A DNA stretch of 64,000 bases from positions 26,235-90,234 of the forward strand of contig LBRD01000004.1 of assembly GCA_000991245.1 (NCBI GenBank). The letters are read 5' to 3'. The stretch's first letter is position 1. Each line of letters begins with the position of its first letter. Below are positions 7,538 to 63,872 of the stretch, piece by piece. The DNA comes from Parcubacteria group bacterium GW2011_GWC1_36_108 (GTDB lineage Bacteria > Patescibacteriota > Minisyncoccia > Moranbacterales > GWC2-37-73). The notes beneath the pieces are model-generated. The model made no database searches. It saw nothing but the letters and a program-made list of their open reading frames with translations, and was not told the origin of the DNA. The translations under genes were made by a program, and so were the position numbers.

Positions 7538-7564
7538 AATTTCCAATTTCCAATTTCCAATTTC
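7538..7564. repeat. 7-bp satellite (AATTTCC/TGGAAAT) x4, intergenic copy
   Basis: aatttccaatttccaatttccaatttc lies upstream of the RRM gene. The same heptamer arrays occur inside pyk (35479-35550) and the fem-like gene (42966-42995, 43270-43316). Confidence 0.7.
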
Positions 7565-7651
7565 TAATAAATTTTCAATGTTTTAATGACTTAATGTTTG
7601 AAAATTAATTAATTGTGAATTGATTGTAAATTGTGAATTGTAAATTGAAAA

Positions 7652-8344
7652 TTATTGCAAATATTTAGACGGGTCTATCCAATCATCCAATTGATTTTTA
7701 TTTTGCACATATCCTAAAATATTTATATTTGCTCCTTTGTGAATTCCTAGGTGTAGATGTTTGCGCTCCCCATCAGTCTCATTACTGAATCCTGTCCCCA
7801 AATTCGCCAAAAAATCTCCGGCTTTCATTTGATCCCCTATTTTAAACGTAATACTGGATAATTTAATATGACCATACACAACCGTGACAGCCTGACCATC
7901 AAGCTCGCAACTGGCAGCGGCAACTCCACCATATCCACTAGCAGTTCTTGCGGATAATAATTTTCCGTCGCACAAAGCTTTCACAGCCACATCAATATTT
8001 TGCTCCTCGATAGTTGCTTCCAAATCAACCGCGCTATGATATCCCGTAAAACGCTCCGGATTTACCGGTGAATTCTTTGGGTTCACATAAATTCCAAATG
8101 GTTTTTTTGTTATCCGCGAAAGCGCATTATCAAGCGGATCAATAGTTTCTTGTTTTTGATTATTATTTGCCGTATTTTTTTTGTTGTCAGTTGTCGGTTG
8201 TAAGTTGTTTGTTGCTTGTTGCGAGTTGTCAGTTGTTGATTGTGAGTTATTTATTGGTGCATTCGCTTTTTTCACATACAAAAAACCAGCAACAACAAAT
8301 ATTGCAATAGTTATAAACAAAAAAATATATGATTTATTTTTCAT
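7652..8344 (-). CDS. M23 family (LytM-type) peptidase, membrane anchored
   Basis: 230 aa with an N-terminal TM segment and a low-complexity N/Q/T linker. GYHSAVD and HLHLGIH are M23 metallopeptidase signatures. Confidence 0.8.
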   Translation of the reverse strand: MKNKSYIFLFITIAIFVVAGFLYVKKANAPINNSQSTTDNSQQATNNLQPTTDNKKNTANNNQKQETIDPLDNALSRITKKPFGIYVNPKNSPVNPERFTGYHSAVDLEATIEEQNIDVAVKALCDGKLLSARTASGYGGVAAASCELDGQAVTVVYGHIKLSSITFKIGDQMKAGDFLANLGTGFSNETDGERKHLHLGIHKGANINILGYVQNKNQLDDWIDPSKYLQ

Positions 8345-34140: not shown

Positions 34141-34376
34141 GCATTGAAACTGATAATAATGAATTGGTGCACTCAAAAATTCAAAACATTTAAACCTCGG
34201 CAAAGCCTCGAGCAAAAAACTGTGTTGAAATTTTGCCAGGGTTTCTTTTGAAACCCGCCGAATGTTCGTATTCCTCACATCCGGCCCACACTGCGACCCC
34301 TCCAAAGCATGGCGCGAGCCATACATATTGCATTTTACTTTATAAACTTTATAACTTTATAACTTTATGAACTATT

Positions 34377-35843
34377 CTAGATTTCCTTAATCCCTACCAA
34401 TTGAATATGTTCCCCATCTGGAGTTCGGCCTAAGATCAAAACAACTTTGTCTCCGGTTGCAAGCACACCATTTTTCTTGGCATCTTCGATGAGCCAATCA
34501 ATATCTTCTCGAAAAACTTCTCCTCGCTCATAAAATTTTGCATTAATTCCCCAAACTAAAGAAAGTTGATGATATGTTTTTTTGTTATGAGTCACAACCA
34601 GCATTGGTTGCTCTGGACGAAAATGCGAAAAAAGTCGCGCCGTAAAACCACTAGCCGATCCGAGCACGACAGCTTTAGCATTGCTGCTTTTGGCAAGTTC
34701 ATATGCACTCTTAATAACTTTTTTAAAATCCCCTTCTCCATTTAAAGTGAGCAAGTGTGTCACGTCATCAAAAGGAGAAGCCTCGGTGTTTTCAATAATA
34801 TCCTTCATCGTGCGAACACTTTCCACTGGATATTTTCCAGAAGCACTTTCCCCAGAAAGCATCACGGCATCAGCATGATCAACAACCGCATTGGTCACAT
34901 CAGAAACTTCAGCTCGTGTTGGACGCGGATTTACAATCATCGAATCAAGCATCTGAGTTGCGACAATCACCGGCTTCATTGCTTGCAAACTTTTCTTTAC
35001 AATTTCTTTTTGCAAAATTGCAACTTTTGTTCCTTCAATTTCAATACCAAGATCACCGCGCGCTACCATAATAGCGTCAGTATGCTCAATGATATCATCC
35101 AAATTTTTTATCGCTTCTTTGCGTTCAATTTTAGCAATAATTTGTGGCAGGTTATCTTCACGTCCAAGAATATTTTTCATCTTGTCTCGCAAAGTTTCAA
35201 TGTTAGCACCAGTGGAAACAAATGACATCGCCACAAAATCAACATCCTGCGAAAGCACGAAAACTAAATCTTTTTCATCCTTTTCTGTGATCGGACTGAT
35301 TTGCAATTTTGCATCAGGAATATTAACACCTTTATGATTTTTCACTGTTCCGCCATCAATAACTTCGCAAAGCAAAACTCCTTCATTTTTTTCCTTAACA
35401 ACAATTTTCATCAGCCCATCCTCAATCAAAATTTCATTCCCCACTTCCACATCATCAATAATTTTTTCAACATCGAGTGAAAATTTTCTGTCATTTGAAA
35501 TTTGATCATTTGAAATTGATTGGAAATTAGAAATTGGAAATTGGAAATTAGGCGCATAAAAAATATCACTGACCAACACAAATTCTCCTGGTTTCATTTC
35601 CACGTTTTCCACAACCACCGTCCTTATTCTCGGTCCTTGCAGATCAGCCAAAATTCCAACAGCCGTGTCCAATTCTTGTGACAATTCTCGAATAATTTTA
35701 ATCACATTTCCATGCCATTCGTGCGAGCCATGAGAAAAATTAAGTCTGGCCACATTCATGCCATTTTCAACCATTTGTTTCAAAACTTCTTTACTATCAG
35801 AAACCAATCCAAGAGTTGCCACTATTTTTGTCTTCTTTGTCAT
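34377..35843 (-). CDS. pyk: pyruvate kinase, carrying an in-frame heptamer-repeat insertion
   Basis: TKIVATLG, NFSHG and MVARGDLG motifs. The insert APNFQFPISNFQSISNDQISN is encoded by the TGGAAAT-type satellite at 35479-35550. Confidence 0.9.
   Translation of the reverse strand: MTKKTKIVATLGLVSDSKEVLKQMVENGMNVARLNFSHGSHEWHGNVIKIIRELSQELDTAVGILADLQGPRIRTVVVENVEMKPGEFVLVSDIFYAPNFQFPISNFQSISNDQISNDRKFSLDVEKIIDDVEVGNEILIEDGLMKIVVKEKNEGVLLCEVIDGGTVKNHKGVNIPDAKLQISPITEKDEKDLVFVLSQDVDFVAMSFVSTGANIETLRDKMKNILGREDNLPQIIAKIERKEAIKNLDDIIEHTDAIMVARGDLGIEIEGTKVAILQKEIVKKSLQAMKPVIVATQMLDSMIVNPRPTRAEVSDVTNAVVDHADAVMLSGESASGKYPVESVRTMKDIIENTEASPFDDVTHLLTLNGEGDFKKVIKSAYELAKSSNAKAVVLGSASGFTARLFSHFRPEQPMLVVTHNKKTYHQLSLVWGINAKFYERGEVFREDIDWLIEDAKKNGVLATGDKVVLILGRTPDGEHIQLVGIKEI
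35479..35550. repeat. degenerate 7-bp satellite inside pyk
   Basis: tgaaaatt..ttgaaatt..ttgaaatt..tggaaattagaaattggaaattggaaatt. It is in-frame and translated as FQFPISN. Confidence 0.7.
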
Positions 35844-36026
35844 ATATTTATAAGAAATAATACTAATTATGCAAATTTATGCCAATACGCGAATTTGCGA
35901 ATAATTTAAACATTTGCATATTCGTAACATTCGCATTCATTCGCGTATTCGTATTATAATATATTCCCATAATAAACAAAAACGGGCAACCTCGAAAGGC
36001 CACCCGCAGTTAAAACAAAGTAAAAA

Positions 36027-36395
36027 CTATTTTATAATTTCATATCCACCAATCATAGGAAGTTTTTTCATTTCTCCTTTAACGGCATTAATGATTCCCA
36101 TAATTGCTAGCACAAAAACAGCAATTGTTCCAAGTGGCAAAATAATAAACCAACCCAAGACTGGTATTACTGTTCCAACCACGTTAACAGCTATAGCGGC
36201 CAGAAGTAGCAACAATTGTTGATTTGCATGAAACTTGGCAAATGGGCTGTTTTTTGCTTCTGAAATAAGTGGAACAAAAAACAAGATTGGAATAACATAT
36301 CCTACGATTGCCATCACTTTGTTCTTTTCAACATCGTCATTTTGAGGTGCTTTTGGAACTTCCACACCTTCCTGCCCTGTTGTGTTTTCTTCCAT
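36027..36395 (-). CDS. DUF4870-like membrane protein
   Basis: The HANQ motif between TM helices is the DUF4870 signature. The start is chosen at MEENTT. The longer ORF to 36491 begins in AT-rich sequence. Confidence 0.5.
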   Translation of the reverse strand: MEENTTGQEGVEVPKAPQNDDVEKNKVMAIVGYVIPILFFVPLISEAKNSPFAKFHANQQLLLLLAAIAVNVVGTVIPVLGWFIILPLGTIAVFVLAIMGIINAVKGEMKKLPMIGGYEIIK

Positions 36396-36504
36396 ATTTT
36401 TTAGATTAAAATTAATTATACTACTTATAATGATACAATATTTATCTACTTTTATTTTACCATATCTTAATATTATTGACAATCCAGTCAATAAAACTCC
36501 CTGA

Positions 36505-37044
36505 TTATTGCAATCCTATTTCTTCAAGCTCCCTCAAAATATCCTCGGGGATTGGATTACTCTTCGGACTCACACCAGGATAACGCCAAGCAGAAATTAT
36601 AGTAATTTGCTTACTAGAATTTATTTTTCTTTGCAACTTAGCAATCTTATCATCTTTCTTCTCACCTAACGTTTTGTCTTTAAATTTTTTCTCTTGAGAT
36701 TTTGTTTGGTACATTACCCAAATTTCCTGATTCCAGTTCTCCGCCGTAGCTTTAGCGGAGGAGGACGTTTCAACAGGCTTGCCCGCCAAAGCTTCAGCAG
36801 AAGCGAAGGAGGGTCTTCCCCATTTTGGTTTTTGAGGTCCAATTTTTATATTTCCAACCGGCACCATCACAGCCACAGTATTTTCCACAATACTCGTTTC
36901 AATTCTTTTTGGTGCACGAATCACGCCCAAAACTTTCTGCTCGCTAAGACCATAGTAATGCATCTTTTCCGCCACATGCGCTGTCCAAAAATATTTATCG
37001 CTGTTTTTCGGTGATTTCCATTGCATAAAAAGTTTTTCATTCAA
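36505..37044 (-). CDS. hypothetical protein
   Basis: 179-aa ORF, 4 bp downstream of the DinD-like gene and probably co-transcribed. No recognisable family. Confidence 0.45.
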   Translation of the reverse strand: MNEKLFMQWKSPKNSDKYFWTAHVAEKMHYYGLSEQKVLGVIRAPKRIETSIVENTVAVMVPVGNIKIGPQKPKWGRPSFASAEALAGKPVETSSSAKATAENWNQEIWVMYQTKSQEKKFKDKTLGEKKDDKIAKLQRKINSSKQITIISAWRYPGVSPKSNPIPEDILRELEEIGLQ

Positions 37045-37047
37045 AAC

Positions 37048-37893
37048 CTACTTTAATCTTTTTTTATTTTTTGCTTGATTTAAAAAATTGTTTCCAGTGA
37101 CCACGCTTTTACCAGTTTTTTCCTCAAGCTCAAGTCTGGCATTTCTGGCAATTTTTCCACCTCGCTTAGCTGGAATCTTATTTTCTTCCAAGCCTCTTGC
37201 TTCAATACTTTGTGCGATTTCACGAGTCGAAAGCTCTGCCAATGCCGTGAAAACGAGCTCCGCATCAGACATGTGATCACGAAGATTTTGAGTTTTTAAG
37301 TTTTTCAAATTTTTGTGTGCCTTGATAGTCAACTCGCTCCATTCTTCATGAATTATATTTGTCAAAATTGCAAATTCATCTCTTTCTTTAACTTCATTGT
37401 TTTTCCAATAATCAGTCAATTTATTTCTGATTTCTTGCCCCATCATCCTTTGCTGAATCCACTTCTCACTTCTTCCCATTTTCTGCCAATATGATCTGGA
37501 ACGATTTATTCCCTTTTCTGGATCAGACATTTCCTGGATTCTTTCGTATCCAGCTTTTGCCAACCACAATTTGATCGGCTCAGCTTTTTTAGATGGAACA
37601 GTTTGAACAAGACGCAAAATTGTTTCAACATCAGCCGCATCGGTTTCGCGCATTTTCCCATCCTCTGCAACTAATTTCAACCGGTTACATTTTGTAACCA
37701 CTTCACTTCCCTCGGCTCTTAAGCGATTCTTTAAAACCTTCCAATAATTTCTAGCTGCCTGAAAATCTTCTTGCTCAATCAAGGCAGCAATAATATCAAT
37801 AACTGAAAAATACCAAGTTTCCTTTTCCTCATCATAGTGCCTGCGAATGTTAAAATTTTCAAAAATTGCCAGTGAATTGCTTACTTTTTTCAT
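37048..37893 (-). CDS. Bro-N domain protein of the DinD (DNA-damage-inducible protein D) family
   Basis: N-terminal AIFENFNIRRHYDEEKETWYFSVIDIIAAL matches the Bro-N/KilA-N pattern. The C-terminus FAILTN...KAHKNLKNLKTQNLRDHMSDAELVFTALAELSTRE aligns with my memory of the E. coli DinD C-terminus. No search was run. Confidence 0.6.
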   Translation of the reverse strand: MKKVSNSLAIFENFNIRRHYDEEKETWYFSVIDIIAALIEQEDFQAARNYWKVLKNRLRAEGSEVVTKCNRLKLVAEDGKMRETDAADVETILRLVQTVPSKKAEPIKLWLAKAGYERIQEMSDPEKGINRSRSYWQKMGRSEKWIQQRMMGQEIRNKLTDYWKNNEVKERDEFAILTNIIHEEWSELTIKAHKNLKNLKTQNLRDHMSDAELVFTALAELSTREIAQSIEARGLEENKIPAKRGGKIARNARLELEEKTGKSVVTGNNFLNQAKNKKRLK

Positions 37894-38039
37894 ATTTTTA
37901 TTTTTAGTGACTTATACTGATATATTATCACTATAACAAAAATTCGTCAACTAAAAAGTAGACTGAAACAAAAAAGCATAGCCAATCATGACTAACGCCT
38001 TTTTTCTTTTCCAAGATTGTGTTTGTATTTCCTAAAAAG

Positions 38040-38921
38040 CTAGCTTTTCATTCCCCTCAACTTCGCGATCCTCTCCTCAATTGGTGGGTGGGTGGAAAAA
38101 AGTTTGGAAACCTTGTTGCCCTTGAAGGGATTTGAGATGTAAAGATGTGCGGTGGCGCGGTTGGCGGCTTCGAGGGGTTCTTGGTCGGAAGAAATCTTTT
38201 CGAGGGCGCTAGCAAGCCCTTCAGGATATCGCGTCAGAAGTGAAGCGCTGGCATCAGCCAAAAATTCGCGCTTTCTGGAAATTGCCATTTGCATCATTAT
38301 TGCGGCAAGTGGAGCAAGCAATGAAAGCAAAATTCCCACAATCATCAAAATTGGATTCCTGTTATCACTGTCATCCCCACCGCCAAAAAAGGACCAATGT
38401 CTGAACCAATCCGCTATCAAAGCCACAAAACCAACCAAAACAACAACTACGGTCGAAAGTAGGATATCCCGATTGCCAATATGAGAAAGTTCATGAGCAA
38501 TCACTCCTTCCAATTCAATTTTTTCCAGTTTATCCAAAAGCCCGGTAGTCACACAAATAACGCCATGCTGGGGATCTCGGCCCGTAGCAAAGGCATTTGG
38601 AGCAGAGTCTTCAATAATATAAATCTTAGGCGCTGGGAGTCCAGCAGTTATGCACAGGTTTTCCACAAGGTGGTATAACTCTCTGTTTCCCTCATGAGTA
38701 ACCTCTTTTGCGCCGCTCATAGCCAAAACAATCTTGTCACTCCACCAATATGAGCCAAAACTCATAACTATCGAGAAAGCAACTGCAATATACAAAATCG
38801 TACTATTCCCCATTGCTCCCGCAAAAACATATCCGACTCCAATCACAAAGGCTAAAAAGCCCGCGATATAAATCCAGGTTAGACGTGTATTTTTGTCAGC
38901 TTCAGTGTATAAAGTAGCCAT
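38040..38921 (-). CDS. htpX: M48 zinc metalloprotease HtpX
   Basis: HELSH zinc motif and the TM topology and length of HtpX. Confidence 0.85.
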   Translation of the reverse strand: MATLYTEADKNTRLTWIYIAGFLAFVIGVGYVFAGAMGNSTILYIAVAFSIVMSFGSYWWSDKIVLAMSGAKEVTHEGNRELYHLVENLCITAGLPAPKIYIIEDSAPNAFATGRDPQHGVICVTTGLLDKLEKIELEGVIAHELSHIGNRDILLSTVVVVLVGFVALIADWFRHWSFFGGGDDSDNRNPILMIVGILLSLLAPLAAIMMQMAISRKREFLADASASLLTRYPEGLASALEKISSDQEPLEAANRATAHLYISNPFKGNKVSKLFSTHPPIEERIAKLRGMKS

Positions 38922-39061
38922 TTACCCTGTTTAATAAGATTTGGATTCAAAAATAAATGAAACCAAAATTTATATAGTTAATTTTAAATTTTTACCTTGT
39001 CTCCCTTAATTAATAATCCAAATCTTAATTTTGTAATCAAAATTATTTAACAGGGTTTGCT

Positions 39062-39742
39062 CTATAAAAACCTAAATTCTGAAATTACATTTTTGAAAAT
39101 ATTTTCAAATTCAGTTGATTTATCGGTGTAATAAGTAGCTTCCAGATAAAAAATCTTTCCTTCTTCTTCATTTTTCCAAAAAATAACATCTCGTATAAGC
39201 CCTTCGGCTGTTTTGACTTTTCCAGTTCTCACTCCCATACGTCCGTTTATCATTTCTTCTTTCCAGTCAGGATCCCATTTGATGCTCTTTTTTCCCGCGG
39301 CAGCTTCGCAGCTTTCACTTTCTCCAAGAGAAATGCTGCCAACCTCAATAGCGGATGCCAATGAGCTGTTTCTGGACCTGATATCGGTATATTTCTTTAA
39401 GAGAAAAAAACTGTTAGCATTATTTTGCACCTCCCAATCATTAGGATGCTTAATTTCAAAGCCGTTTGTTTCATCGGTATTAATTATCCAGTCCTTAATT
39501 CCCCTGGAAGAATCGCTGTACAAATTTCCTTTAAGTCCATCCACTGCGAGAACCAAGCTTTTCGTGATATGCACACCGGAAACATTTGAGGACGGCATCG
39601 CATCCACAAAAAGATATATTGCGTAGCCTATTCCCATTACGATGAAAAAAACTAGACTGATAAGGGTCAGCAAGCAAATATAATGTGACTTGTTGTGATC
39701 ATCATACTTTTTATGAGCGTCGTGGTGCCTATATTTGAACAT
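39062..39742 (-). CDS. hypothetical membrane-anchored protein
   Basis: 226 aa with a His-rich cytoplasmic N-terminus, one TM segment and an extracytoplasmic domain. It lies between htpX and lemA. Confidence 0.45.
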   Translation of the reverse strand: MFKYRHHDAHKKYDDHNKSHYICLLTLISLVFFIVMGIGYAIYLFVDAMPSSNVSGVHITKSLVLAVDGLKGNLYSDSSRGIKDWIINTDETNGFEIKHPNDWEVQNNANSFFLLKKYTDIRSRNSSLASAIEVGSISLGESESCEAAAGKKSIKWDPDWKEEMINGRMGVRTGKVKTAEGLIRDVIFWKNEEEGKIFYLEATYYTDKSTEFENIFKNVISEFRFL

Positions 39743-39757
39743 TGTGATTCGATTTGA

Positions 39758-40309
39758 TTAAAATTGGACTTTGACATTTTCTTTTTCTGCCTCATCAGCT
39801 GCAAAGAATTCTCTTTTAGTAAAATTTAACATTCCAGCAACGATGTTACTTGGAAAAGTTTCGATTTTAATGTTGAAATCCCTGACGTTTCCATTGTAAA
39901 ATCTTCGTGAAGCTTGAATTTTGTCTTCAGTATCAGTCAATTCTCTTTGAAGCTCTAGAAAGTTTTGATTTGCTTTCAAATCTGGATAATTTTCAGAAAC
40001 TGCAAACAACGATTTCAATGTTCCGGAAAGCATATTTTCTGCATCTTGTTTTTCTGCAGGACTTCCAGCGCTCATTGCAGCTGTTCGGGCTGCTGTTACT
40101 CGTTCAAACAATTCTTTTTCGTGAGTGGCATAACCTTTCACAGTGTTAATCAAATTTGGAATCAGATCATATCTTCGCTTGAGTTGCACATCAATATCAC
40201 TCCAAGCCTCATCAACTCTGTTTTTCAAAGTTACCAAGCTGTTGTAAACGCCAATTCCAAAAACAAGAAACAATCCCAGAGCGACCAGCACAATTAATAA
40301 AATACTCAT
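39758..40309 (-). CDS. lemA: LemA family protein
   Basis: 183 aa with an N-terminal TM segment. YNSLV...RRYDLIPNL...FYNGNVRDFN are LemA conserved blocks. Confidence 0.8.
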   Translation of the reverse strand: MSILLIVLVALGLFLVFGIGVYNSLVTLKNRVDEAWSDIDVQLKRRYDLIPNLINTVKGYATHEKELFERVTAARTAAMSAGSPAEKQDAENMLSGTLKSLFAVSENYPDLKANQNFLELQRELTDTEDKIQASRRFYNGNVRDFNIKIETFPSNIVAGMLNFTKREFFAADEAEKENVKVQF

Positions 40310-40474
40310 AAAAAATTTAACCGACTGTTTGCCGTAAAGATTACTGCAAAAGCGATTTTTTAATTAGACTTTGTAATATAATTATACATCAATTTTGCGA
40401 ATTTCCCAATTGAGAGAATTTAACTGAAATAATGTGCTATAATTAAGCAAGATTAATAATATAATACAACTCCT

Positions 40475-40915
40475 ATGGAATTTATTACGTCTTATGCAGT
40501 GTTTCTCATTCCAATTACAGTTGGAATTATCGTGCAAGCCATCAAATTTGTGCTTTACAGTTTAAAACACGGTTGGGACATTCGCTACGTCCTTACCCAC
40601 GGTCATATGCCAAGCGCGCACACAGCTTTTGCTTTTTCATTGGTTACATCCATTGGTTTTTATGAAGGAGTTCACACTGGGACATTTGCCGTTGCAATTG
40701 CGCTTGCCTTTCTTATTATCGATGATGCAACTCGTCTTCGAATGACTTTGGGCGACCAAGGAAAATATCTCAATATGCTCATTGGTCAACTTAATATAAA
40801 TGAAGAGAAATATCCCAGACTCAAAGAACGTATGGGTCACAAAGTAAGCGAAGTTATTGTCGGTGCTATCACTGGTCTTATTCTTACTACTATATTTATC
40901 AAGCTCCTAGCATAA
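40475..40915 (+). CDS. divergent PAP2/DUF212 (YuiD-like) membrane protein
   Basis: HGHMPSAHTA and DDATRLR match acid phosphatase/vanadium-haloperoxidase-related DUF212 motifs. Confidence 0.6.
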   Translation: MEFITSYAVFLIPITVGIIVQAIKFVLYSLKHGWDIRYVLTHGHMPSAHTAFAFSLVTSIGFYEGVHTGTFAVAIALAFLIIDDATRLRMTLGDQGKYLNMLIGQLNINEEKYPRLKERMGHKVSEVIVGAITGLILTTIFIKLLA

Positions 40916-40950
40916 TAGCTTTTTAGCTTTTCAGACATTAGCTTCTTAGT

Positions 40951-40984
40951 AACAAAAAATCACCGCAAGGTGATTTTTATTTGT
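40951..40984. terminator. bidirectional terminator
   Basis: aaaaaatcaccgcaaggtgattttt, flanked on both sides by inverted copies of the AGCTTTTCAG...TTAG 3' motif. Confidence 0.6.
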
Positions 40985-41023
40985 ATTTTTTTCTAACAAG
41001 CTAAAAAGCTAATGCCTGAAAAG

Positions 41024-42361
41024 CTATCTTACTAGTTCTTCTTCGATAACTTTCCGATCATTCCAAGGAATCTTCTTATCCCCAACTACCATCGTTTCAA
41101 AATCACCCATACCTGTGATGCAAATAATATCTCCCTCTTGAGCAATCTCAATCGCTTTTCTGATTGCTTCCCTCCTGTCGATAATTTTCCAAAAATTTTG
41201 CCCTTCTGTTTTATTTTTAATCCCAACAGCAATTTCTTCAATAATTTGCTCAGGTTTTTCATAGTACGGTTCATCATTTGTAAGAATGACAACATCAGCA
41301 TATTTGGAGACAACCCCCCCCATAATAGGTCGTTTTCCACGATCTCGATCGCCGCAAGAACCAAAAATAGCAATAATTTTAGAATCAGACTTTTTAGCCT
41401 GAAAAAGCGTGCTATAAAGCCTTTCCAAAGCATTTGGCGTCAAAGCAAAATCAACCAAAATATGCAGCCCTAAATCGTTTTCTACGGCCTCCATTCGCCC
41501 TGCCACGCCCTTTATTTTTGCCAGTGCGTCTTTAATCGTTTCTATCCCAATCTCCTCACTAAGGCCCACACACGTTGCAGCAAGGGCATTCTCGACATTA
41601 AAAAGTCCAGGCAATTGCAAATTGAGTCTAATACTTTTTTTCTCATCCATACCCGCCAATTTAGCAGCAGAAAAATTTCCTATTTCAAACGATGAGCCAT
41701 TAATTCCAATTTCAATGTTTTCCGCATTTACAATTTTTATTTTTACATTATCATTTTGATTTATGAGATTTGTACTTTCAATTTTTGTTGTGTATCCATA
41801 TTTTTTTTCCACATTAAAATTCACAAATTCATTAGGATTCTCCATATCTAAATTAACAATATTTGTTCCTTTATTTTTTTCTACATTTTCAAAAAGTTTT
41901 TTCTTCGCTTCACGATATTTTTCCATCGTCTTATGATAATCCAAATGCTCACGCGTAACATTAGTAATAACTGCCGTCTTATAGTCAACTCCCCACACAC
42001 GATATTGATCTAGTGAATGAGAAGATGTTTCCAAAACCAAATATTCACAGCCTGCATCAACAGCTTTTTTGATAAATTTTTGTAAAGTAAGGGCAGATTC
42101 GGTCGTGAAGTGAGAAAGATTTTTTTCCTCAACTCCATTAATTTTGAAATTAATCGTTGAAGCCATTGCAACTTTCCGGCCAGCTTCTTCCAAAATTTTT
42201 GTGACCATCTGAACAGTTGTTGTTTTTCCATCAGTTCCCGTAACACCAATTACCTTTAATTTTCGTGATGGAAAACCATACCAAACATTAGCCACAACGG
42301 CTTGCGCTAAGTGGTACAGGTTTTTAATATTTTGGGGAAAAAGTTTTTTAATATAGTGCAT
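41024..42361 (-). CDS. murE: Mur ligase family protein (MurE-like)
   Basis: GVTGTDGKTTT P-loop, a DxxREH-type region and C-terminal domain pattern of Mur ligases. MurE versus other Mur ligases was not resolved. Confidence 0.7.
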   Translation of the reverse strand: MHYIKKLFPQNIKNLYHLAQAVVANVWYGFPSRKLKVIGVTGTDGKTTTVQMVTKILEEAGRKVAMASTINFKINGVEEKNLSHFTTESALTLQKFIKKAVDAGCEYLVLETSSHSLDQYRVWGVDYKTAVITNVTREHLDYHKTMEKYREAKKKLFENVEKNKGTNIVNLDMENPNEFVNFNVEKKYGYTTKIESTNLINQNDNVKIKIVNAENIEIGINGSSFEIGNFSAAKLAGMDEKKSIRLNLQLPGLFNVENALAATCVGLSEEIGIETIKDALAKIKGVAGRMEAVENDLGLHILVDFALTPNALERLYSTLFQAKKSDSKIIAIFGSCGDRDRGKRPIMGGVVSKYADVVILTNDEPYYEKPEQIIEEIAVGIKNKTEGQNFWKIIDRREAIRKAIEIAQEGDIICITGMGDFETMVVGDKKIPWNDRKVIEEELVR

Positions 42362-42472
42362 ATATTAATAATTTTAAATTTTAAGTTTTAAATTTTAAAT
42401 GAATTTTTAATTATTTAATTTAAAATTTAGACATTTAGATTTGATTTAAAATTTTAAATTTAAAACTTAAAA

Positions 42473-43483
42473 TTATTTCTTGAATTTTACTGCAAAAGCC
42501 TTCGCTCTCTGCAGTCCTCGATAAACCGCATATTTCCTAGGGTTAATAATAATATCATAACTCCCAGGAAATTCAATGGATTTAGTATTCGGTGAAAAAC
42601 CCAGTTTGAAATTAGTGATTCCCTCCCAACTGTTATCACTATTAACGGTTTTAATACCTCCAAAATCGTAACGCGTGCAGCCTCTTTCTTTGGCTTCTAA
42701 AATCGCCTGCCATTGCAATAAAAATGGTGCCATCACATTTCTATTATCATTTGACGATGCCCCGTGCAAATATGTCGCAGTGTTTTCAAAAAACAAAACC
42801 AGATTTGCTGCAATTATTTTCCCTTCAAACTCAGCCACATAAATCTTGAGCATTTCCTCCGGCAAAGTCTCAATCATTTTTCGATAATATTCTTCTGGAT
42901 GCGCCACAATTCCCTGCCTCGCCGCCATTTCCTTTGTGAGTTTAAGAAAAATTTCTACATATTGATTGGAAATTGGAAATTGGAAATTGGAAATTGCTCG
43001 CACTAAAACATTATGTTTTATTGCGAGTTTTATATTATATCGTGTTTTAGGTTTCATTTCATTCAACAAAGTTTCCACGTCTTTTGAAATATCCAACACA
43101 AAAACTTCTTTCGGTTGCATATTGTGTGGAGCTTTAACAACTTTTTCTGAAATATTTTCTTTTATCATTTCCAACATCTGATCACTTTCCGGTTCAACCC
43201 TAATCCAACCAGCATTTTCTTTTTTTCCCAATTCAATCAACCCCCACATCCCATTTTTAATTTTGTCATTTGGATTTTGGATTTCATTGGAAATTGGAAA
43301 TTGGAAATTGGAAATTACAGGCCCTCTAGGACTGTAAAAATATTTCCCCACAATCGGCAAAACATGCTCAATAATACTCGCTGAAAATGCGTCATTTTCA
43401 ACAAAATGTGTTTTTCTCCCAACAGCTTCCTGAAACTTTCGCCATTGCTGCGATTGTAGAATTTCTTTATTTTCCATACCCAA
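42473..43483 (-). CDS. FemAB-family peptidyltransferase with two in-frame heptamer-repeat insertions
   Basis: YLHGASSNDNRNVMAPFLLQWQAILEAKERGCTRYDFGG is the Fem/GNAT-like C-domain. Two ISNFQFPISN inserts are encoded by satellites at 42966-42995 and 43270-43316. Confidence 0.7.
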   Translation of the reverse strand: MGMENKEILQSQQWRKFQEAVGRKTHFVENDAFSASIIEHVLPIVGKYFYSPRGPVISNFQFPISNEIQNPNDKIKNGMWGLIELGKKENAGWIRVEPESDQMLEMIKENISEKVVKAPHNMQPKEVFVLDISKDVETLLNEMKPKTRYNIKLAIKHNVLVRAISNFQFPISNQYVEIFLKLTKEMAARQGIVAHPEEYYRKMIETLPEEMLKIYVAEFEGKIIAANLVLFFENTATYLHGASSNDNRNVMAPFLLQWQAILEAKERGCTRYDFGGIKTVNSDNSWEGITNFKLGFSPNTKSIEFPGSYDIIINPRKYAVYRGLQRAKAFAVKFKK

Positions 43484-44837: not shown

Positions 44838-44900
44838 CCTTTTCTAAATAATTTTAAATTTTAAATTTAAAATTTAAAATGAATTTTTAATTGATAAATT

Positions 44901-47285
44901 TTAAATTATCAAACACGCGGTACACCCACCACCACAGTCTTTGCCTGTTTCATTTCCATTTTGAATACCATCCGAGCAAGTCGGAGTTACCACTACTGGC
45001 TCTTGTTCTGGTTCCGGCTCTGGCTCGGGCTCTTCTTTCGGTTTGAAATATTCTTCTTTGCATTCCAAAGTTGGAATAGGATCAAGATCTTTGTTCTTTT
45101 TCTTGTCTTTTTTAAACCAATCTTGCACACCCTTTTCCCAATTTTTATATTGAGAATCATCGGATGGATCTTTTGGATAATCTCCTCGTGGATCATCTTT
45201 TTTCACATAAAATAAAATACTGTGAACTTCCCCGAATGTTTTTTTGTCTGAAGTTCCATCAGGACAAGAATCATTTGCCAAGCAATAATCTCCTTTGTAA
45301 TCCTTGGCATCCATTTCGCACACCTTTACATCTTCTTTAATGTCTTGTTCTCCATTGAGAATTGGTTTGCCGGCATCTTCTTTTTCATATTTTGGAAATT
45401 GTTCAGCCGCACTGTTTCCCAATGCAAAATTCATAAACGATCTCCAAATCGGAGCAGCCACATAAATTCCATCAGCACCGACTTTCATAGAGGAGTTGTC
45501 ATTGTTTCCAGCCCAAACCCCCACTGCAATTGACGGCGTGTACCCCATTGCCCAACCATCGCGAAATTCATTGGTTGTTCCAGTCTTGGCCGCAACTTGG
45601 CGATCTGAAAATTTGAAAGGATTATTGTCTCCAAACACAGGTGCTCTGAGTTCATTGGTCGACATAATATAATCAAGCATAGCAACATATTTTTCTTCAA
45701 CAATTCTTTGCCCAGCGCTTTGTTTGAATTCTTCCAAAACCGCTCCGTCCTTATCTTGAATTTTCAAAATTGCAGTTTTGTCATAGTGAATTCCTCCTGT
45801 GGCCAAACCACCATACGCATTAACGTGATCAAGTAATGTCACTTCTCCACCTCCGAGTACCAAAGACAAACCGTATCGTTCAGGTTGATTGAGACCTTTT
45901 ATTCCAAGCCCTTTTGCAAGTTGAATTGAATCTTTCACTCCTGCCAAATACAAAGTTTTCACAGCAGGAATGTTGAGCGACATAGCCAATGCATTTTTCA
46001 TTTGAAGCGGTCCTTTGAATTTTCCATCATAATTTTGCGGCTTGTAATCTTTTCCTTCATCGGTACTAAAGTTTGTTGCCACATCATATAATAATGTTTC
46101 TGGGGTGTAACCTTTCGTAAAAGCTGTCAGATAAACATATGGTTTAAATGAAGACCCCGGTTGACGATCAGCCAAAGCCACGTTAACTTGCCCATCAATT
46201 GATTTGTCAAAATAATTTTTCGAGCCAACCATCGCCAAAATTTGTCCAGTTTTTGGATCCATTGCTACCAACGCTGCATTGCTGGCATTTTGAGCTTTGT
46301 TTTTTTCAGCTCCTTCTACGACTGCTTTTTCTGCTGCCTTCTGTTTGTCCCAATCAAGCGTAGTATAAACTTTTAGTCCTCCTTGCTCTACCGCCTGTTC
46401 TCCATATTTCTGTTCCAAATATTCTTTTACATACATCACAAAATGAGGAGCTTGAATATTATCTTGTTTTGGAGTTATTGCTGCAAAGATATCCACGCCT
46501 TTAGCTTCGTCTGCCTGCTCTTGCGTGATATATCCCAAATCAGCCATTTTTCTAAGTGCAGAATTTTTTCTTCCAACTAAAGCATCCCGATGAGAACCAA
46601 AAGGCGAATAATACGTTGGCGCGTTTGGCAGTGAAGCCAAAAGAACAGCCTCAGCAAGATTTAAATCCTTTGCTGATTTTGAAAAAAATGTTTGAGCTGC
46701 CGCTTCAATCCCATAGGCACTTGAACCATACGGAATTTGATTAAGATACATTGCTAAGATTTCATCTTTGGAATATTTTTGCTCCAATTCTATAGCAAGA
46801 ATAACTTCTTTTATTTTTCGCGTGAATGTTTTCTCGTCACTAAGCAATGATTTTTTAATAAACTGCTGTGTAATCGTGCTACCACCTTGTGCAGCCCCAC
46901 CTTTTATAATATCTTTAAAAGCTGATCGCAAAATAGCTTTCGGGTTTACTCCGAAATGCGAATAAAATTCCTGATCTTCCAAAGCAATAGTCGCATACTT
47001 CACATTATCCGGAATTTGCGCAAAAGGTATAACTGTTCTTTTCTCCTCCCCGTGTACATCATACAAAAGATGCTCACCGGAGCGATCGTAAATTTTGGTT
47101 GATTGCGCAATCAGTTTTGCATCCACCGAATTTGCACTCGGCAAATCCTTGGCAAAATACAAAAAGATTCCAACTACACTTAAAAATCCAACACCAAAAA
47201 GATACAGGGAAATTTTCCCTACAATTTTCCATTTATCTTTATTGGAAGAACTTTTAAAATTTCTTGAAATAAATATTTGATTCAT
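44901..47285 (-). CDS. class A penicillin-binding protein (glycosyltransferase+transpeptidase) with a PE-repeat linker and Cys-rich tail
   Basis: GT51 motifs (EDQEFYSHFGV, GGSTITQQ) and the transpeptidase SxxK/SxN-type blocks. The C-terminus is EPEPEPEPEQEP followed by CSDGIQNGNETGKDCGGGCTAC. Confidence 0.85.
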   Translation of the reverse strand: MNQIFISRNFKSSSNKDKWKIVGKISLYLFGVGFLSVVGIFLYFAKDLPSANSVDAKLIAQSTKIYDRSGEHLLYDVHGEEKRTVIPFAQIPDNVKYATIALEDQEFYSHFGVNPKAILRSAFKDIIKGGAAQGGSTITQQFIKKSLLSDEKTFTRKIKEVILAIELEQKYSKDEILAMYLNQIPYGSSAYGIEAAAQTFFSKSAKDLNLAEAVLLASLPNAPTYYSPFGSHRDALVGRKNSALRKMADLGYITQEQADEAKGVDIFAAITPKQDNIQAPHFVMYVKEYLEQKYGEQAVEQGGLKVYTTLDWDKQKAAEKAVVEGAEKNKAQNASNAALVAMDPKTGQILAMVGSKNYFDKSIDGQVNVALADRQPGSSFKPYVYLTAFTKGYTPETLLYDVATNFSTDEGKDYKPQNYDGKFKGPLQMKNALAMSLNIPAVKTLYLAGVKDSIQLAKGLGIKGLNQPERYGLSLVLGGGEVTLLDHVNAYGGLATGGIHYDKTAILKIQDKDGAVLEEFKQSAGQRIVEEKYVAMLDYIMSTNELRAPVFGDNNPFKFSDRQVAAKTGTTNEFRDGWAMGYTPSIAVGVWAGNNDNSSMKVGADGIYVAAPIWRSFMNFALGNSAAEQFPKYEKEDAGKPILNGEQDIKEDVKVCEMDAKDYKGDYCLANDSCPDGTSDKKTFGEVHSILFYVKKDDPRGDYPKDPSDDSQYKNWEKGVQDWFKKDKKKNKDLDPIPTLECKEEYFKPKEEPEPEPEPEQEPVVVTPTCSDGIQNGNETGKDCGGGCTACLII

Positions 47286-51721: not shown

Positions 51722-52267
51722 TCAACAATTATTTTTAATTTCTCTCATTTTTCTGCTATTTAAATGACATAGTGCTATTGCAATTGCATCAGCGGTGTCA
51801 TCTGGTTTGGGAATCTCTTTCAATTTCAAAATATTCTTTACCATTAGCTGTATTTGCTTCTTTTCTGCCCTACCGTAACCAGTCAAGGCTTGTTTGACTT
51901 GCAGCGGTGTGTATTCAAATATGCTAACACAAAATCTCTCAAGTGTCAAGAGTATAGACCCTCGAGCTTGGCTTACTTTCATTACCGTTTTTACATTCTT
52001 AAAAAAGAACAAATCTTCCACTGCAGCCTCATCAGGCTTATATTTTTCAATTATTTGTTCTAAATCCTTCACAACTTCAAAAAGGCGTTCGGCTGTGCTG
52101 TTTTTTGGTGAAGTTGTGATGTGCCCATAAGCAATTGATGTCACACATCCTTTCTTTTCATCCAAAATAGCCCAGCCAACAATAGCAGTCCCAGGATCAA
52201 CCCCTAAAACTCTTAGAGTTTTAGGGGAATTTTTAATTTTTAATTTTGAATTTTTAATCAATTCCAA
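51722..52267 (-). CDS. ruvC: crossover junction endodeoxyribonuclease RuvC
   Basis: LGVDPGTAIVGWAIL, AAVEDLFF and ADAIAIALCH match RuvC catalytic blocks. The start codon is uncertain. The ORF opens with TTG in AT-rich sequence. Confidence 0.8.
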   Translation of the reverse strand: MELIKNSKLKIKNSPKTLRVLGVDPGTAIVGWAILDEKKGCVTSIAYGHITTSPKNSTAERLFEVVKDLEQIIEKYKPDEAAVEDLFFFKNVKTVMKVSQARGSILLTLERFCVSIFEYTPLQVKQALTGYGRAEKKQIQLMVKNILKLKEIPKPDDTADAIAIALCHLNSRKMREIKNNC

Positions 52268-52355
52268 ATGATTAAATTTTTAATGTTTTAAACATTTTGA
52301 AATTAAGATTTGATTTTAAATTTCAAATTTTAAATTTCAAATTAATCTATGATAA

Positions 52356-59212: not shown

Positions 59213-59215
59213 ATT

Positions 59216-59400
59216 TTGTATTTTGTATTTCCCTACAACCTAATTCCTAAAACCTATAATTTGTATTTTGTATTTACCTACAACCTAATTCCTAAAACCT
59301 ATAATTTGTATTTTGTATTTACCTACAACCTAATTCCTAAAACCTATAATTTTGTATTTTTGTATTTCCCTACGACCTAATTCCTAGAACCTAAAACCTG
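59216..59400. repeat. 45-bp minisatellite x4
   Basis: Unit is ttgtattttgtatttacctacaacctaattcctaaaacctataat. Units are contiguous with no spacers, and the array abuts the pilB stop codon. Confidence 0.8.
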
Positions 59401-62400: not shown

Positions 62401-62420
62401 TTATGCGAAACTTTTACCAT
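59403..62420 (-). CDS. pilB: tandem-fused type II/IV secretion (PilB/GspE-family) ATPase, two complete ATPase modules in one 1005-aa polypeptide
   Basis: There are two Walker A motifs (both TGPTGSGKTTTLY). There are two Asp and His boxes (GEIRDDETADISVNAALTGHLVLSTLHTN and GEIRDEETANIAIQAALTGHSILSTLHTN). There are two tetracysteine motifs (CQHCK...GCDKCHGLG and CDCK...GCDKCNNIG). An N-terminal T2SSE_N-like domain is present. The two halves are ~50 percent identical by eye. Confidence 0.85.
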   Translation of the reverse strand: MVKVSHKQLIHNTDKDEQAGKLLQHMRGESEEERAAQLASEYDLSYVDLNIFPVGAEDMRTISEENSREFQICVFQKAGKELRMGIIDPANKKTLDHIESLKNENGWTIHLYVISNSSLEKIWKRYADIPLLENLEAMQITLSGEDLEKFEKEFGSMLDLKKRIREIPTTQIISIIMAGAVKMKASDIHFEPQEEEVRMRFRIDGILQDVGRFPNDTYHFILSRIKMMGKMKINIRDIAQDGHFSIDMENGKINVRTNIIPGSHGESVVMRLLSQADILLSVEDLGLRGLAYENVQREIAKPHGMILTTGPTGSGKTTTLYALVNKLNVAGVKIITIEDPIEYEVKNISQTQVAKDRNYTFAEGLRAVVRQDPDVILVGEIRDDETADISVNAALTGHLVLSTLHTNNAPASIPRFIELGVKPNLIAPSVNCFIAQRLVRKLCQHCKEEYVPARETSDSVKKILSIISPKAKLEIPKTIEKLYRPVGCDKCHGLGFKGRIGIFEVLTISENIEKLILEMGGEREIAQTALEDGMITMAQDGILKAIEGLTSMEEVWRATGQTEFLEEIYEKLMSQSMSRAIDITEEDMLLVSQNLEPVESLRNLIEKSNQKSSAKYIFASSLLLNVGDIHIEPEEKSVKIRYRMDGILQTIAEIPLNEYPSLLGSIKFLSGFSTEVRGGVMDSRFSISLDKPFGNITDTKVDVRVSIILGGYGETVVMRLLNKSSVALDLEKLGIRKQNLEKIISEIKKPNGVFLTTGPTGSGKTTTLYSALKVLNNPEVKIITVEDPIEYQLDGVLQTSVDDKEGYTFPTALRALLRQNPDIMMIGEIRDEETANIAIQAALTGHSILSTLHTNDAAGGVQRLINMGVRSDDLATAVNALMAQRLVRKLCDCKTERHLTISEISKMKKILGNVSEKSGIAVPSFEKVYEAKGCDKCNNIGYKGRTTISEVLVVDRDIEELITQSASSSQIRDKAIENGMISMEQDGMLKVLEGETSLEEVERVI

Positions 62421-62578
62421 ACTAAGTCATATAACATGAAACATATAGCATGTAACATGAATACAAAAAAATTGTTTTTATTTTTATTTACAAAGTTATT
62501 ATACCCCAAAAATGCTTTTTGGACAAAAGAAAAACGACCAGTAAGAACTGCTCGCTTAGTTATTATCAAAAAAAATTA

Positions 62579-63775: not shown

Positions 63776-63872
63776 TTGAATTTTTACTTTACAAACTTTA
63801 TAAACTTTACCAACTTTATGAACTTTATAACTATTTAGCTAAGTAATATAAAGTAGCAGGCATTTTGAGTAA

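What the first reader, a model, noticed from the sequence alone, without database searches (positions are those of the whole stretch)
35479..43316. 7-bp TGGAAAT microsatellite inserted in-frame inside pyruvate kinase and a FemAB-family gene (FQFPISN peptides)
The same heptamer array (x3-4, sometimes with degenerate flanking copies) is found in three places:
- between genes (7538-7564);
- inside pyk (35479-35550);
- twice inside the fem-like gene (42966-42995 and 43270-43316).

Within the genes the arrays are in multiples that keep the frame and are translated as ...NFQFPISN.... Heptamer tracts are classic slipped-strand substrates, and a +/-1 unit change would frameshift a glycolytic enzyme or a cell-wall enzyme. 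Either these genes are subject to repeat-mediated on/off switching, which is odd for housekeeping genes, or the insertions are tolerated loop insertions of a spreading mini-element. Both options are unusual.
Basis: seen in the sequence. Interest (0 to 1): 0.6.

Follow-up and report, generated by a model that had tools for sequence, protein, structure and literature searches.

The report
30-nt heptamer-repeat modules inside housekeeping genes
The TGGAAAT tracts are copies of a discrete 30-base module, four and two-sevenths copies of a 7-base unit, that is scattered through this candidate-phylum bacterium and its relatives and is translated as a harmless 10-residue loop in essential enzymes, rather than acting as an on/off switch.

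Summary
(AATTTCC)4AA, which is TGGAAAT on the + strand, occurs four times in the window: in pyk, twice in a FemAB-family gene, and once between genes. That is 12 pattern hits against 0.3 expected.

The organism is a Candidatus Moranbacteria (Patescibacteria/CPR) groundwater MAG. Period-7 mini-arrays are about 20 times denser there than in ordinary bacteria. Whatever the unit, their length peaks at about 31 nt.

The AATTTCC module has a fixed 5' edge. It has no hairpin and no target-site duplication. In metagenomes it sits in frame, in both orientations, inside proteins of 102 Pfam families, including LeuRS, TsaD, TrmD and SecA.

In pyk and Fem it lies in loops. Orthologues hold other heptamer arrays in the same slots: AATTTCG, AAAGTCG, CATGGAA, ATACAAG. 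All units of an array change together. Units that contain a stop codon are patched every 21 nt, which shows the arrays are translated.

No length variation is seen across 20 or more independent assemblies, so phase variation is rejected.

The best reading is tolerated in-frame copies of self-homogenising, STRR-like heptamer modules. How they arise and why they measure about 30 nt is unresolved, and an active templated or mobile process is not excluded. This is a new variant of a known kind and is moderately to highly interesting.

The parts
35520..35549 (-). AATTTCC module in pyk. It reads (AATTTCC)4AA with one mismatch (TCT for TCC) and encodes NFQFPISNFQ, residues 99-108.
   Evidence: The region is coil between strands E88-93 and E120-123 of domain B, with pLDDT 68-75. 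The query has no counterpart here in solved pyruvate kinase 2E28, where the alignment is gapped.
35487..35519 (-). Degenerate heptamer tract of 33 nt next to the pyk module (AATTTCA-like units). It encodes SISNDQISNDR.
   Evidence: It is conserved as a peptide in orthologues, with synonymous differences.
34377..35843 (-). Pyruvate kinase gene that hosts the module.
   Evidence: PF00224 at 2e-108 and PF02887; 2E28 at 1e-99.
43287..43316 (-). AATTTCC module at Fem site 1, perfect 30 nt. It encodes ISNFQFPISN directly after the conserved PRGPV.
   Evidence: The region is coil with pLDDT 59-72, below 50 at residues 59-62.
43254..43286 (-). Degenerate 33-nt heptamer tract (AAATCCA-like units) following Fem site 1.
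42966..42995 (-). AATTTCC module at Fem site 2, perfect 30 nt. It encodes ISNFQFPISN between strand E158-162 and helix H168-188.
42473..43477 (-). FemAB-family aminoacyltransferase gene that hosts two modules.
   Evidence: PF02388 at 7e-43; FemX 4II9 at 1e-16.
7538..7567 (+). Intergenic AATTTCC module with one mismatch, in the opposite orientation to the genic copies. It lies 16 nt upstream of a TTGACA-17-TATACT site in front of the RRM_1 gene.
8183..8248 (-). In-frame TGACAAC (GTTGTCA) heptamer array in an M23 peptidase gene. Every in-frame TGA is replaced by TCA, TCG, TTA or AAA, giving a 21-nt super-period.
7623..7653 (-). Intergenic AATTTAC/AATTTTC array of 31 nt. It shows the same architecture, (AATTTNN)4AAT.
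42370..42474 (.). Intergenic compound AATTTTA arrays between the Fem gene and the MurE-like gene. The unit contains a stop codon on both strands.
44850..44907 (.). Intergenic AATTTTA arrays upstream of ruvA.
52228..52343 (.). Two 31-nt arrays, AATTTTT and ATTTCAA/ATTTTAA, upstream of ruvC.

Best explanation
The tracts are copies of a discrete 30-nt DNA module, (AATTTCC)4AA. This is one family among many heptanucleotide mini-arrays that pervade this Candidatus Moranbacteria genome and other Patescibacteria. The arrays are of the STRR / dispersed heptameric SSR kind.

The arrays are DNA-level entities. They are generated and kept homogeneous by a copying process that acts on the 7-nt unit, so all units of an array change together. 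They occupy slots of about 30-33 nt that persist through evolution.

They land or persist mostly between genes. Inside genes only those survive that meet three conditions:
1. Their length is a multiple of 3.
2. They have no stop codon on the reading strand. AATTTCC is stop-free in all six frames. Other units are patched every 21 nt.
3. They lie in surface loops that already tolerate length variation.

There they are translated as 10-residue loop segments (NFQFPISNFQ or ISNFQFPISN) of working pyruvate kinase and Fem transferase. They are passengers, not switches.

What is shown: the anatomy, the distribution, the loop location, the translation filter, the concerted change of units, and the lack of length polymorphism.

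What is inferred: neutrality or selfishness, and the copying mechanism, which I take to be slipped-strand mispairing with intra-array conversion.
For: - **Period 7 is special.** There are 9 arrays against 0-1 for periods 5-11 in the window. Density per 100 kb is 14 in the window, 9.8 in close relatives, 3.3 in distant Patescibacteria and 0.7 in other bacteria.
- **Length mode.** Non-ascertained arrays peak at 31 nt; 63 of 104 fall in 27-34 nt.
- **Mostly intergenic.** By my reading of the TRF table against the ORF map, 12 of about 16 window arrays are intergenic, although only about 15% of the window is non-coding.
- **Loops.** The modules fall in loops.
- **Stop patching.** Stop codons are patched at exactly the in-frame positions in the M23 gene. 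The same is seen in L084 pyk and L205 pyk.
- **Shared slots.** The same slot holds AATTTCC, AATTTCG (C to G in all four units), AAAGTCG and CATGGAA in Fem orthologues. In pyk the slot holds AATTTCC, AATTTTA/G, ATACAAG or TGACAAC-type arrays.
- **Many hosts.** The 30-mer sits in frame in 71 of 80 metagenome loci, covering 102 Pfam families. That is about the coding density, as expected for a unit free of stops in six frames.
- **No length variants.** None is seen in 20 or more assemblies.
Against: - **Excess DNA conservation.** The pyk module is identical at all 30 nt in lineages whose conserved residues share only 51-55% of codons. That is more conservation than a neutral passenger should show.
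- **Fixed 5' phase.** The 5' edge is fixed in phase and the 3' edge is ragged. Ordinary slippage from an arbitrary local seed does not predict this.
- **Peaked length.** The length distribution is peaked rather than monotonic.
- **Wide GC range.** The same AT-rich 30-mer occurs in contigs of 28-65% GC and in a 68% GC viral contig.
- **No intermediates.** The window holds no copies with 2-4 mismatches.

These points favour an active templated or mobile process, or selection on the DNA itself.
Confidence: 0.55

Rival explanations
1. Actively written or mobile mini-cassette. A dedicated process makes a roughly 30-33-nt product with a fixed start and a ragged end. It could be reiterative copying of a single heptamer by a polymerase or reverse transcriptase, or copy-paste of pre-formed arrays. 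The product is installed in, or overwrites, slots in either orientation.
For: - The 5' phase is fixed. In 77 loci the base at -1 matches background, and the array always continues with AA after the fourth unit.
- Among ten unascertained AATTTNN arrays, 7 are in phase 0 and 3 in phase 6. The chance of that is about 4e-6 if phase were uniform.
- Length peaks at about 31 nt for every unit.
- All four units differ together between window and L205 inside an unchanged 30-nt slot.
- Window copies have only 0-1 mismatches.
- An identical 30-mer occurs in more than 100 protein families and across 28-68% GC.
- Fem site 2 is a same-length replacement, not an added segment.
Against: - There is no target-site duplication and no hairpin or terminal inverted repeats.
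- No transposase, reverse transcriptase or integrase was seen among the window ORFs scanned against Pfam or listed by the contig look-up. About 18 kb at the right end was not annotated.
- No clean presence/absence polymorphism of a heptamer module was found between window and L207.
- Many different units would need many templates.
Confidence: 0.25
2. Functional DNA or RNA motif. The arrays are five AATTT boxes at 7-bp spacing. They would be bound by a protein (nucleoid, promoter UP-element-like, or uptake/recognition) or would act as RNA pairing sites. They sit inside genes because the genome has little spacer.
For: - Synonymous sites of the pyk module are invariant: 10 of 10 codons against about 53% expected, P about 1e-3 per pair.
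- The AATTT phase is conserved across NN variants.
- The intergenic copy sits at about -41 to -70 of a TTGACA-17-TATACT promoter-like site.
- Both orientations exist, so sense and antisense RNA pairs are possible.
Against: - Many units lack AATTT altogether: CATGGAA, AAAGTCG, ATACAAG, TGACAAC.
- The variable NN positions are homogeneous within an array, which binding would not require.
- Close relatives replace or lose the array at the same slot without visible consequence.
- The strand folds into no structure and there is no Rfam match.
- DNA-level conservation can also follow from concerted evolution. Each unit position is read in all three codon phases, so any unit-wide change alters the peptide.
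Confidence: 0.14
3. Phase-variable contingency loci. Slipped-strand changes of +/-1 unit would switch pyk and fem off and on.
For: A tandem 7-nt repeat inside an ORF is a formal slippage substrate. Any +/-7-nt change would shift the frame (sequence).
Against: - The pyk protein is identical in at least 21 contigs and the Fem protein in 20 contigs.
- Cluster members are all 488 aa.
- L001, L002, L211 and L212 are 99.9-100% identical to the window, including the arrays.
- Copy number is conserved across 66-98% identical orthologues.
- The hosts are housekeeping enzymes in many families.
- Only about 4 copies are present.
Confidence: 0.03
4. Selected peptide. The NFQFPISN segment itself would have a protein-level role, such as a docking motif.
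For: The peptide is conserved in many pyk orthologues and Fem orthologues.
Against: - The same DNA is read as WKLEIGN in the opposite orientation in 26 of 71 hosts.
- It occurs in all three codon phases.
- It also occurs between genes.
- Relatives at 86-90% identity lack it.
- Model confidence is low in the loop.
Confidence: 0.03

Closest known systems
STRR (short tandemly repeated repetitive) heptanucleotide sequences of heterocystous cyanobacteria, and dispersed heptameric SSRs such as GGGNATC of Xanthomonas and Nostoc (Rehm et al. 2015, PMC4692102)
   Same: - The unit is 7 nt, in tandem, with many dispersed copies and several unit families per genome.
- The arrays are mostly intergenic and close to ORF ends.
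[quoted passage not shown] Here the mode is 4.3-4.4 units.
- A Scytonema control locus shows arrays of 30-37 nt.
- Function and origin are unknown in both cases.
   Different: - The host lineage here is Patescibacteria/CPR.
- The units are AT-rich with no G-tracts, so the G-quadruplex explanation for four units cannot apply.
- One family is as frequent in genes as coding density predicts and is translated in essential enzymes. [quoted passage not shown]
- The fixed 5' phase, the slot persistence and the all-units-at-once changes are documented here. I found none of these in the parts of PMC4692102 I read, and my literature searches found no paper on such arrays in Patescibacteria.
Rickettsia palindromic elements (RPE), 'selfish DNA in protein-coding genes' (reviewed in PMC10969869)
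   Same: Both are dispersed repeat families inserted in frame into unrelated housekeeping genes. Both are translated as extra peptide segments compatible with the fold.
   Different: RPEs are about 100-150 bp palindromic, MITE-like elements. The module here is 30 nt of direct repeats with no palindrome, and it occurs in both orientations and all three codon phases.
Small dispersed repeats (SDR, 21-27 nt) of Nostocaceae (Elhai et al. 2008, Genome Res 18:1484). This is cited from my own knowledge. The reference is listed in PMC3116915, but the paper itself could not be read.
   Same: Both are very small dispersed elements. The SDRs are reported as often embedded in heptameric tandem repeats. In the relatives studied here, GC-rich palindromes of 21-30 nt likewise co-occur with the heptamer arrays and insert in frame.
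   Different: SDRs are hairpin-forming and are not tandem repeats. The module here is the heptamer array itself.
Phase-variable simple sequence repeats (contingency loci) of Haemophilus and Neisseria
   Same: Both are tandem short repeats inside ORFs whose unit is not a multiple of 3.
   Different: No copy-number polymorphism is seen here, there are only about 4 copies, and the hosts are housekeeping genes.

Membership tests
STRR-type dispersed heptanucleotide repeats | Tandem repeats with a 7-nt unit, over-represented relative to other periods | tested here: met
   There are 9 period-7 arrays against 0-1 for periods 5-11. TRF gives 195 of 505 rows at period 7.
STRR-type dispersed heptanucleotide repeats | Many dispersed loci and several unit families in one genome | tested here: met
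   By my count from the TRF table, about 16 arrays of at least 10 different units occur in 64 kb. The pooled loci contain 63 unit classes.
STRR-type dispersed heptanucleotide repeats | Preference for about four units | tested here: met
   The length mode is 31 nt. The published preference for four units is in PMC4692102.
STRR-type dispersed heptanucleotide repeats | Predominantly intergenic location | tested here: met
   By my reading of the TRF table against the ORF map, 12 of about 16 window arrays lie in the roughly 15% of non-coding DNA. The stop-free AATTTCC family is the exception, with 71 of 80 copies in ORFs.
STRR-type dispersed heptanucleotide repeats | Host is a heterocystous cyanobacterium (original definition) | tested here: not met
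   The host is Candidatus Moranbacteria.
Phase-variable contingency locus | Repeat-number polymorphism within or between closely related populations | tested here: not met
   Assemblies from many samples are identical. This covers consensus assemblies only; raw reads were not available.
Phase-variable contingency locus | Frameshifted (off) alleles present | tested here: not met
   All pyk cluster members are 488 aa, and orthologues are all intact.
Phase-variable contingency locus | Host genes are surface, restriction-modification or virulence functions | tested here: not met
   Hosts are pyk, Fem, LeuRS, TsaD, TrmD, SecA and similar.
MITE / RPE-like in-frame selfish element | Dispersed family of conserved sequence inserted in frame in unrelated genes | tested here: met
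MITE / RPE-like in-frame selfish element | Terminal inverted repeats or a palindromic structure | tested here: not met
   The minimum free energy is 0 kcal/mol on both strands.
MITE / RPE-like in-frame selfish element | Target-site duplication | tested here: not met
   No flank duplication of 4 nt or more in 77 loci, the same as the control. A duplication in phase with the repeat itself (AAT/AATT) could not be excluded.
MITE / RPE-like in-frame selfish element | Clean presence/absence polymorphism between close relatives | tested here: inconclusive
   Between window and L207 the slots hold different arrays rather than being empty or filled. Compared with L205, pyk differs by exactly one 30-nt module, but the neighbouring slot also differs.
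DNA uptake sequence (USS/DUS)-like motif | One conserved short motif per genome at high density | tested here: not met
   The same genome carries many unrelated units.
DNA uptake sequence (USS/DUS)-like motif | Biased uptake of motif-bearing DNA | not testable with these tools
   This needs an experiment.
Intervening sequence removed before the mature protein (intron or intein) | Insert need not preserve the frame or avoid stop codons | tested here: not met
   The frame is always kept, and in-frame stops are specifically patched. The inserts are therefore read by the ribosome.

The most novel reading that the evidence does not exclude
The arrays could be the product of an unrecognised, active 'heptamer-writing' process shared by Patescibacteria, cyanobacteria and others. 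In this reading a single 7-nt template is copied reiteratively from a fixed start to fill or overwrite a slot of about 30-33 nt. That would make these the smallest known actively propagated DNA modules.

They would colonise essential coding sequence wherever the product is stop-free. The in-frame copies would then be a natural read-out of the mechanism behind the 35-year-old STRR puzzle.
Probability: 0.25. Interest if true: 0.85.

Novelty: new variant of a known kind. Interest (0 to 1): 0.62.

Why it matters
Heptanucleotide dispersed repeats have been known since 1990 in cyanobacteria, and later in Xanthomonas, without an accepted origin or function. The 'four-unit' preference was attributed to G-quadruplexes. 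Three findings here bear on that.

- **The G-quadruplex explanation does not generalise.** AT-rich units with no G-tracts, in a different phylum, show the same size of about 4.3 units.
- **A stop-free unit enters essential genes freely.** This adds 10-residue loops to aminoacyl-tRNA synthetases, SecA, pyruvate kinase and others. It is a hidden source of the many small insertions seen in CPR proteins, and it can confound alignment, annotation and structure prediction.
- **Orthologous slots record the process.** Arrays that change all units at once give a tractable evolutionary record from which the generating mechanism can be inferred.

For this window specifically, the finding removes the worry that a glycolytic enzyme and a cell-wall enzyme are phase-variable.

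Tried and rejected
- **Genome-collection scan for pyk relatives.** It saturated on universal pyruvate kinase motifs. Only a handful of Patescibacteria loci were useful. The other bacteria served as a control set.
- **Protein search with a 43-aa (NFQFPIS)n peptide.** It returned only short spurious ORFs, some from cyanobacteria. It was uninformative for host proteins because 10-residue matches fall below significance.
- **Target-site duplication test.** Negative.
- **Hairpin and structure test.** None found.
- **Rfam scan.** Only two tRNAs.
- **Literature searches for the DNA string, the peptides, and CPR with heptamer repeats.** Nothing found.
- **Elhai et al. 2008.** It could not be read.
- **Clean presence/absence of heptamer modules between window and the 82-90% identical L207.** The slots differ in content rather than occupancy.
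- **Assembly artefact.** Considered and rejected. The tracts are independently assembled in NCBI, ENA and JGI data and are conserved in orthologues.
- **Viral-contig scan.** There is one hit, in a 68% GC contig, intergenic. The module is therefore not a phage-borne element of CPR.
Full report
**Observation**

TGGAAATTGGAAAT with at most one mismatch hits 12 overlapping positions at four places, against 0.30 expected; no shuffle reaches 12.

Read on the gene strand, each tract is the 30-mer (AATTTCC)4AA:
- It is perfect at 42966-42995 and at 43287-43316.
- It has one mismatch at 35520-35549 and at 7538-7567. The 7538 copy is in the opposite orientation.

The host genes are a pyruvate kinase, 34377-35843(-), matching PF00224 and PF02887, and a FemAB-family transferase, 42473-43477(-), matching PF02388. 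The tracts are translated as NFQFPISNFQ and ISNFQFPISN. The frame is kept because 30 is a multiple of 3, not because the tract is a multiple of 21.

In pyk and at the first Fem site, a 33-nt degenerate heptamer tract follows the pure module.

**Source and reality of the sequence**

The exact proteins belong to Candidatus Moranbacteria (Patescibacteria/CPR) groundwater MAGs such as GW2011_GWC2_37_73 and GCA_003507495.1.

Several results show the tracts are real and stable:
- The identical pyk protein is on at least 21 contigs from many samples. The identical Fem protein is on 20 contigs. All members of the pyk 90% cluster are 488 aa.
- Loci L001, L002, L211 and L212 are 99.9-100% identical to the window through the arrays.

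The tracts are therefore not assembly artefacts, and at the level of consensus assemblies they do not vary in length.

**A genome-wide phenomenon**

- Period 7 stands out. The window has 9 strong period-7 arrays against 0-1 for periods 5-11.
- Density per 100 kb is 14 in the window, 9.8 in close Moranbacteria loci, 3.3 in more distant Patescibacteria and 0.7 in 62 loci of other bacteria. Most of that last group comes from one Scytonema locus with classic STRRs.
- By my reading of the TRF table against the ORF map, the window has about 16 heptamer arrays of at least 10 different units. Twelve of them lie in the roughly 15% of non-coding DNA.
- In 644 kb of pooled loci, arrays not selected by my search have a length mode of 31 nt. 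Sixty-three of 104 fall in 27-34 nt and only 12 in 20-26 nt, although TRF would detect the shorter ones. A minor mode at 53-59 nt looks like two stacked slots.

**The AATTTCC family is a discrete module**

I examined 80 of the returned loci.

- The array is 30-34 nt in 70 of the 80 loci.
- Its 5' edge is fixed. The base before the first A matches background composition. The two bases after the fourth unit are AA in 76-77 of 77 loci. The next base is T or A in 73 of 77.
- The phase preference is not an ascertainment effect. Among 33-nt arrays, where offsets 0-5 were all detectable, 9 of 12 start at offset 0.
- Ten unascertained arrays of other AATTTNN units start in phase 0 (7 arrays) or phase 6 (3 arrays). 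None is in phases 1-5.
- There is no target-site duplication and no secondary structure on either strand.
- Seventy-one of the 80 arrays lie inside ORFs of at least 150 aa. In 45 the sense strand reads AATTTCC (ISNFQFP) and in 26 the antisense orientation is read (WKLEIGN). All three codon phases occur.
- The hosts match 102 Pfam families. These include LeuRS (5), TsaD (5), TrmD (5), SecA, SecD/F, GatA, TGT, RsmH and PheRS.
- Host contigs range from 28% to 65% GC. One copy lies in a 68% GC viral contig, upstream of a methyltransferase gene.
- AATTTCC has no stop codon in any of the six frames. That explains why this family is found in genes at about the coding density.

**The arrays are translated and filtered**

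Where the unit contains a stop codon, the in-gene array is patched exactly where the stop would be in frame.

- In the M23 peptidase, TGACAAC units carry TCA, TCG, TTA or AAA at the codons where TGA would fall, giving a 21-nt super-period.
- In L084 pyk, AATTTTA units have T changed to G where TAA would be read.
- In L205 pyk, AAA replaces TGA.

The pyk insert covers residues 97-118. It is coil between two strands of the lid (B) domain, with the lowest confidence of the N-terminal half (pLDDT 68-75). The alignment to solved pyruvate kinase 2E28 is gapped over this stretch.

Fem site 1 is coil with pLDDT 59-72. Site 2 spans a strand end, a loop and a helix start, and is 6 residues longer than FemX.

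**Slots persist while their content changes in concert**

*pyk.* Orthologues at 66-78% amino-acid identity (L083, L085, L003) carry the perfect module at the same loop. So does the close relative L207, at 98%. All 10 codons are identical among these four, whereas only 51-55% of codons are identical at conserved residues elsewhere between the distant pairs (P about 1e-3 per pair).

Other relatives hold something different in the same loop:
- AATTTTA/G in L084.
- ATACAAG in L004, which is 56% identical.
- A TGACAAC-type array in L205.
- Nothing in some shorter orthologues.

*Fem site 1.* Directly after PRGPV, the window has AATTTCC x4. L205 has AATTTCG x4 in the same 30 nt, with C changed to G in every unit. 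L207, which is 82-90% identical at the DNA level, has AAAGTCG x4.7. L084 has CATGGAA x4.

*Fem site 2.* The module occupies a slot that is the same length as non-repetitive or other-repeat sequence in orthologues.

*Across 59 Fem orthologues.* Three loops are filled with heptamer-derived peptides and with GC-rich hairpin insertions.

Within-array identity far exceeds between-lineage identity, which is concerted evolution. In the window, AATTTCC copies have 0-1 mismatches and none has 2-4.

**Interpretation**

Phase variation is rejected, for three reasons: no length variants, conserved copy number across deep divergence, and housekeeping hosts.

The tracts are best read as in-frame survivors of a lineage-wide population of self-homogenising heptamer modules. 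They are tolerated because they are 3n long, stop-free and in permissive loops.

One point tempers the 'excess' DNA conservation. In a heptamer array read in frame, each unit position is read in all three codon phases. A unit-wide change is therefore never synonymous. Concerted evolution plus weak selection on the peptide can freeze the DNA.

Passive slippage does not obviously explain the following:
- the length set-point of about 30 nt, both in and outside genes;
- the fixed 5' phase with a ragged 3' end;
- all-units-at-once differences inside an open reading frame;
- the same AT-rich 30-mer in genomes of very different GC content.

These observations keep two rivals alive: an active, templated or mobile process (0.25) and a functional AATTT-box motif (0.14). 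For the motif rival, the intergenic copy sits 16 nt upstream of a TTGACA-17-TATACT site for an RRM-protein gene, but this is a single case.

**Comparison with what is known**

- *Closest kind.* These resemble the STRR / dispersed heptameric SSRs of cyanobacteria and Xanthomonas. Rehm et al. [quoted passage not shown] They explain the four units by G-quadruplex formation. The AT-rich arrays here show the same size without G-tracts.
- *Precedent for in-frame selfish DNA.* Rickettsia palindromic elements are inserted in frame in housekeeping genes (PMC10969869), but they are about 150-bp palindromes.
- *Literature gap.* No paper containing the DNA string, the peptides, or CPR together with heptamer repeats was found.

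I therefore class this as a new variant of a known kind.

**Limits**

- No raw reads were available.
- No complete genome of the organism was available.
- The taxonomy of the metagenome loci was not resolved.
- The mechanism is inferred, not shown.

Noticed in passing
window 7493-7567: The intergenic AATTTCC module ends 16 nt upstream of a canonical TTGACA (7521-7516), 17-nt spacer, TATACT (7498-7493) on the - strand. That is the UP-element position of the promoter-like site of an RRM_1 RNA-binding protein gene (7077-7394). The mRNA-sense strand there is the complement of the arrays carried in the pyk and fem mRNAs.
   Followed up: partly
window 8183-8248: The M23 peptidase gene carries an in-frame TGACAAC heptamer array. 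Every in-frame TGA is replaced by TCA, TCG, TTA or AAA, giving a 21-nt super-period and a low-complexity linker (SQSTTDNSQQATNNLQPTTDN).
   Followed up: yes
window 13266-13283; L207 about 4613, 9291, 11655 and 14036: The GC-rich palindrome TCCGCCAGCTGGCGGA is present once, intergenic, in the window. In the close relative L207, this and other GC-rich hairpins of 21-30 nt are inserted in frame in the MurE-like, sigma-70 and other genes. This is a second class of tiny in-frame insertion.
   Followed up: partly
window about 8353-8595; Fem orthologues P0146, P0149, P0187: A GC-rich intergenic element translates to motifs such as RPGLDPGSR and WIPDQVRDD. The same peptide motifs (CHSGLDPESR...IPDQVRDD) appear as insertions in Fem orthologues. 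This suggests a MITE-like element that also enters coding loops.
   Followed up: no
window 59215-59393: A 45-nt tandem repeat of 3.9 copies at 95% identity, itself built of TTTGTAT and ACCTAAA heptamers, lies downstream of the 1007-aa ORF 59403-62426.
   Followed up: no
window 34337-34373 and 63786-63830: Related non-heptamer tandem repeats: ACTTTATA x4.4 directly after the pyk stop codon, and ACTTTATAA x5 next to a GTTTTAG heptamer array.
   Followed up: no
L210 3831-3865 (viral contig, 68% GC): (AATTTCC)5, flanked by GTGAGTG heptamers, lies just upstream of a DNA methyltransferase gene in a high-GC viral contig. It is an AT-rich module in a very GC-rich genome.
   Followed up: partly
L093 and L107 (metagenome LeuRS genes): Leucyl-tRNA synthetases that carry the AATTTCC module also contain a NUDIX domain inserted after the editing domain.
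   Followed up: no
window 1-64000: GC skew is negative on the + strand across the whole window, and almost all genes are on the - strand. This is consistent with a single replichore in which genes are co-oriented with replication.
   Followed up: no
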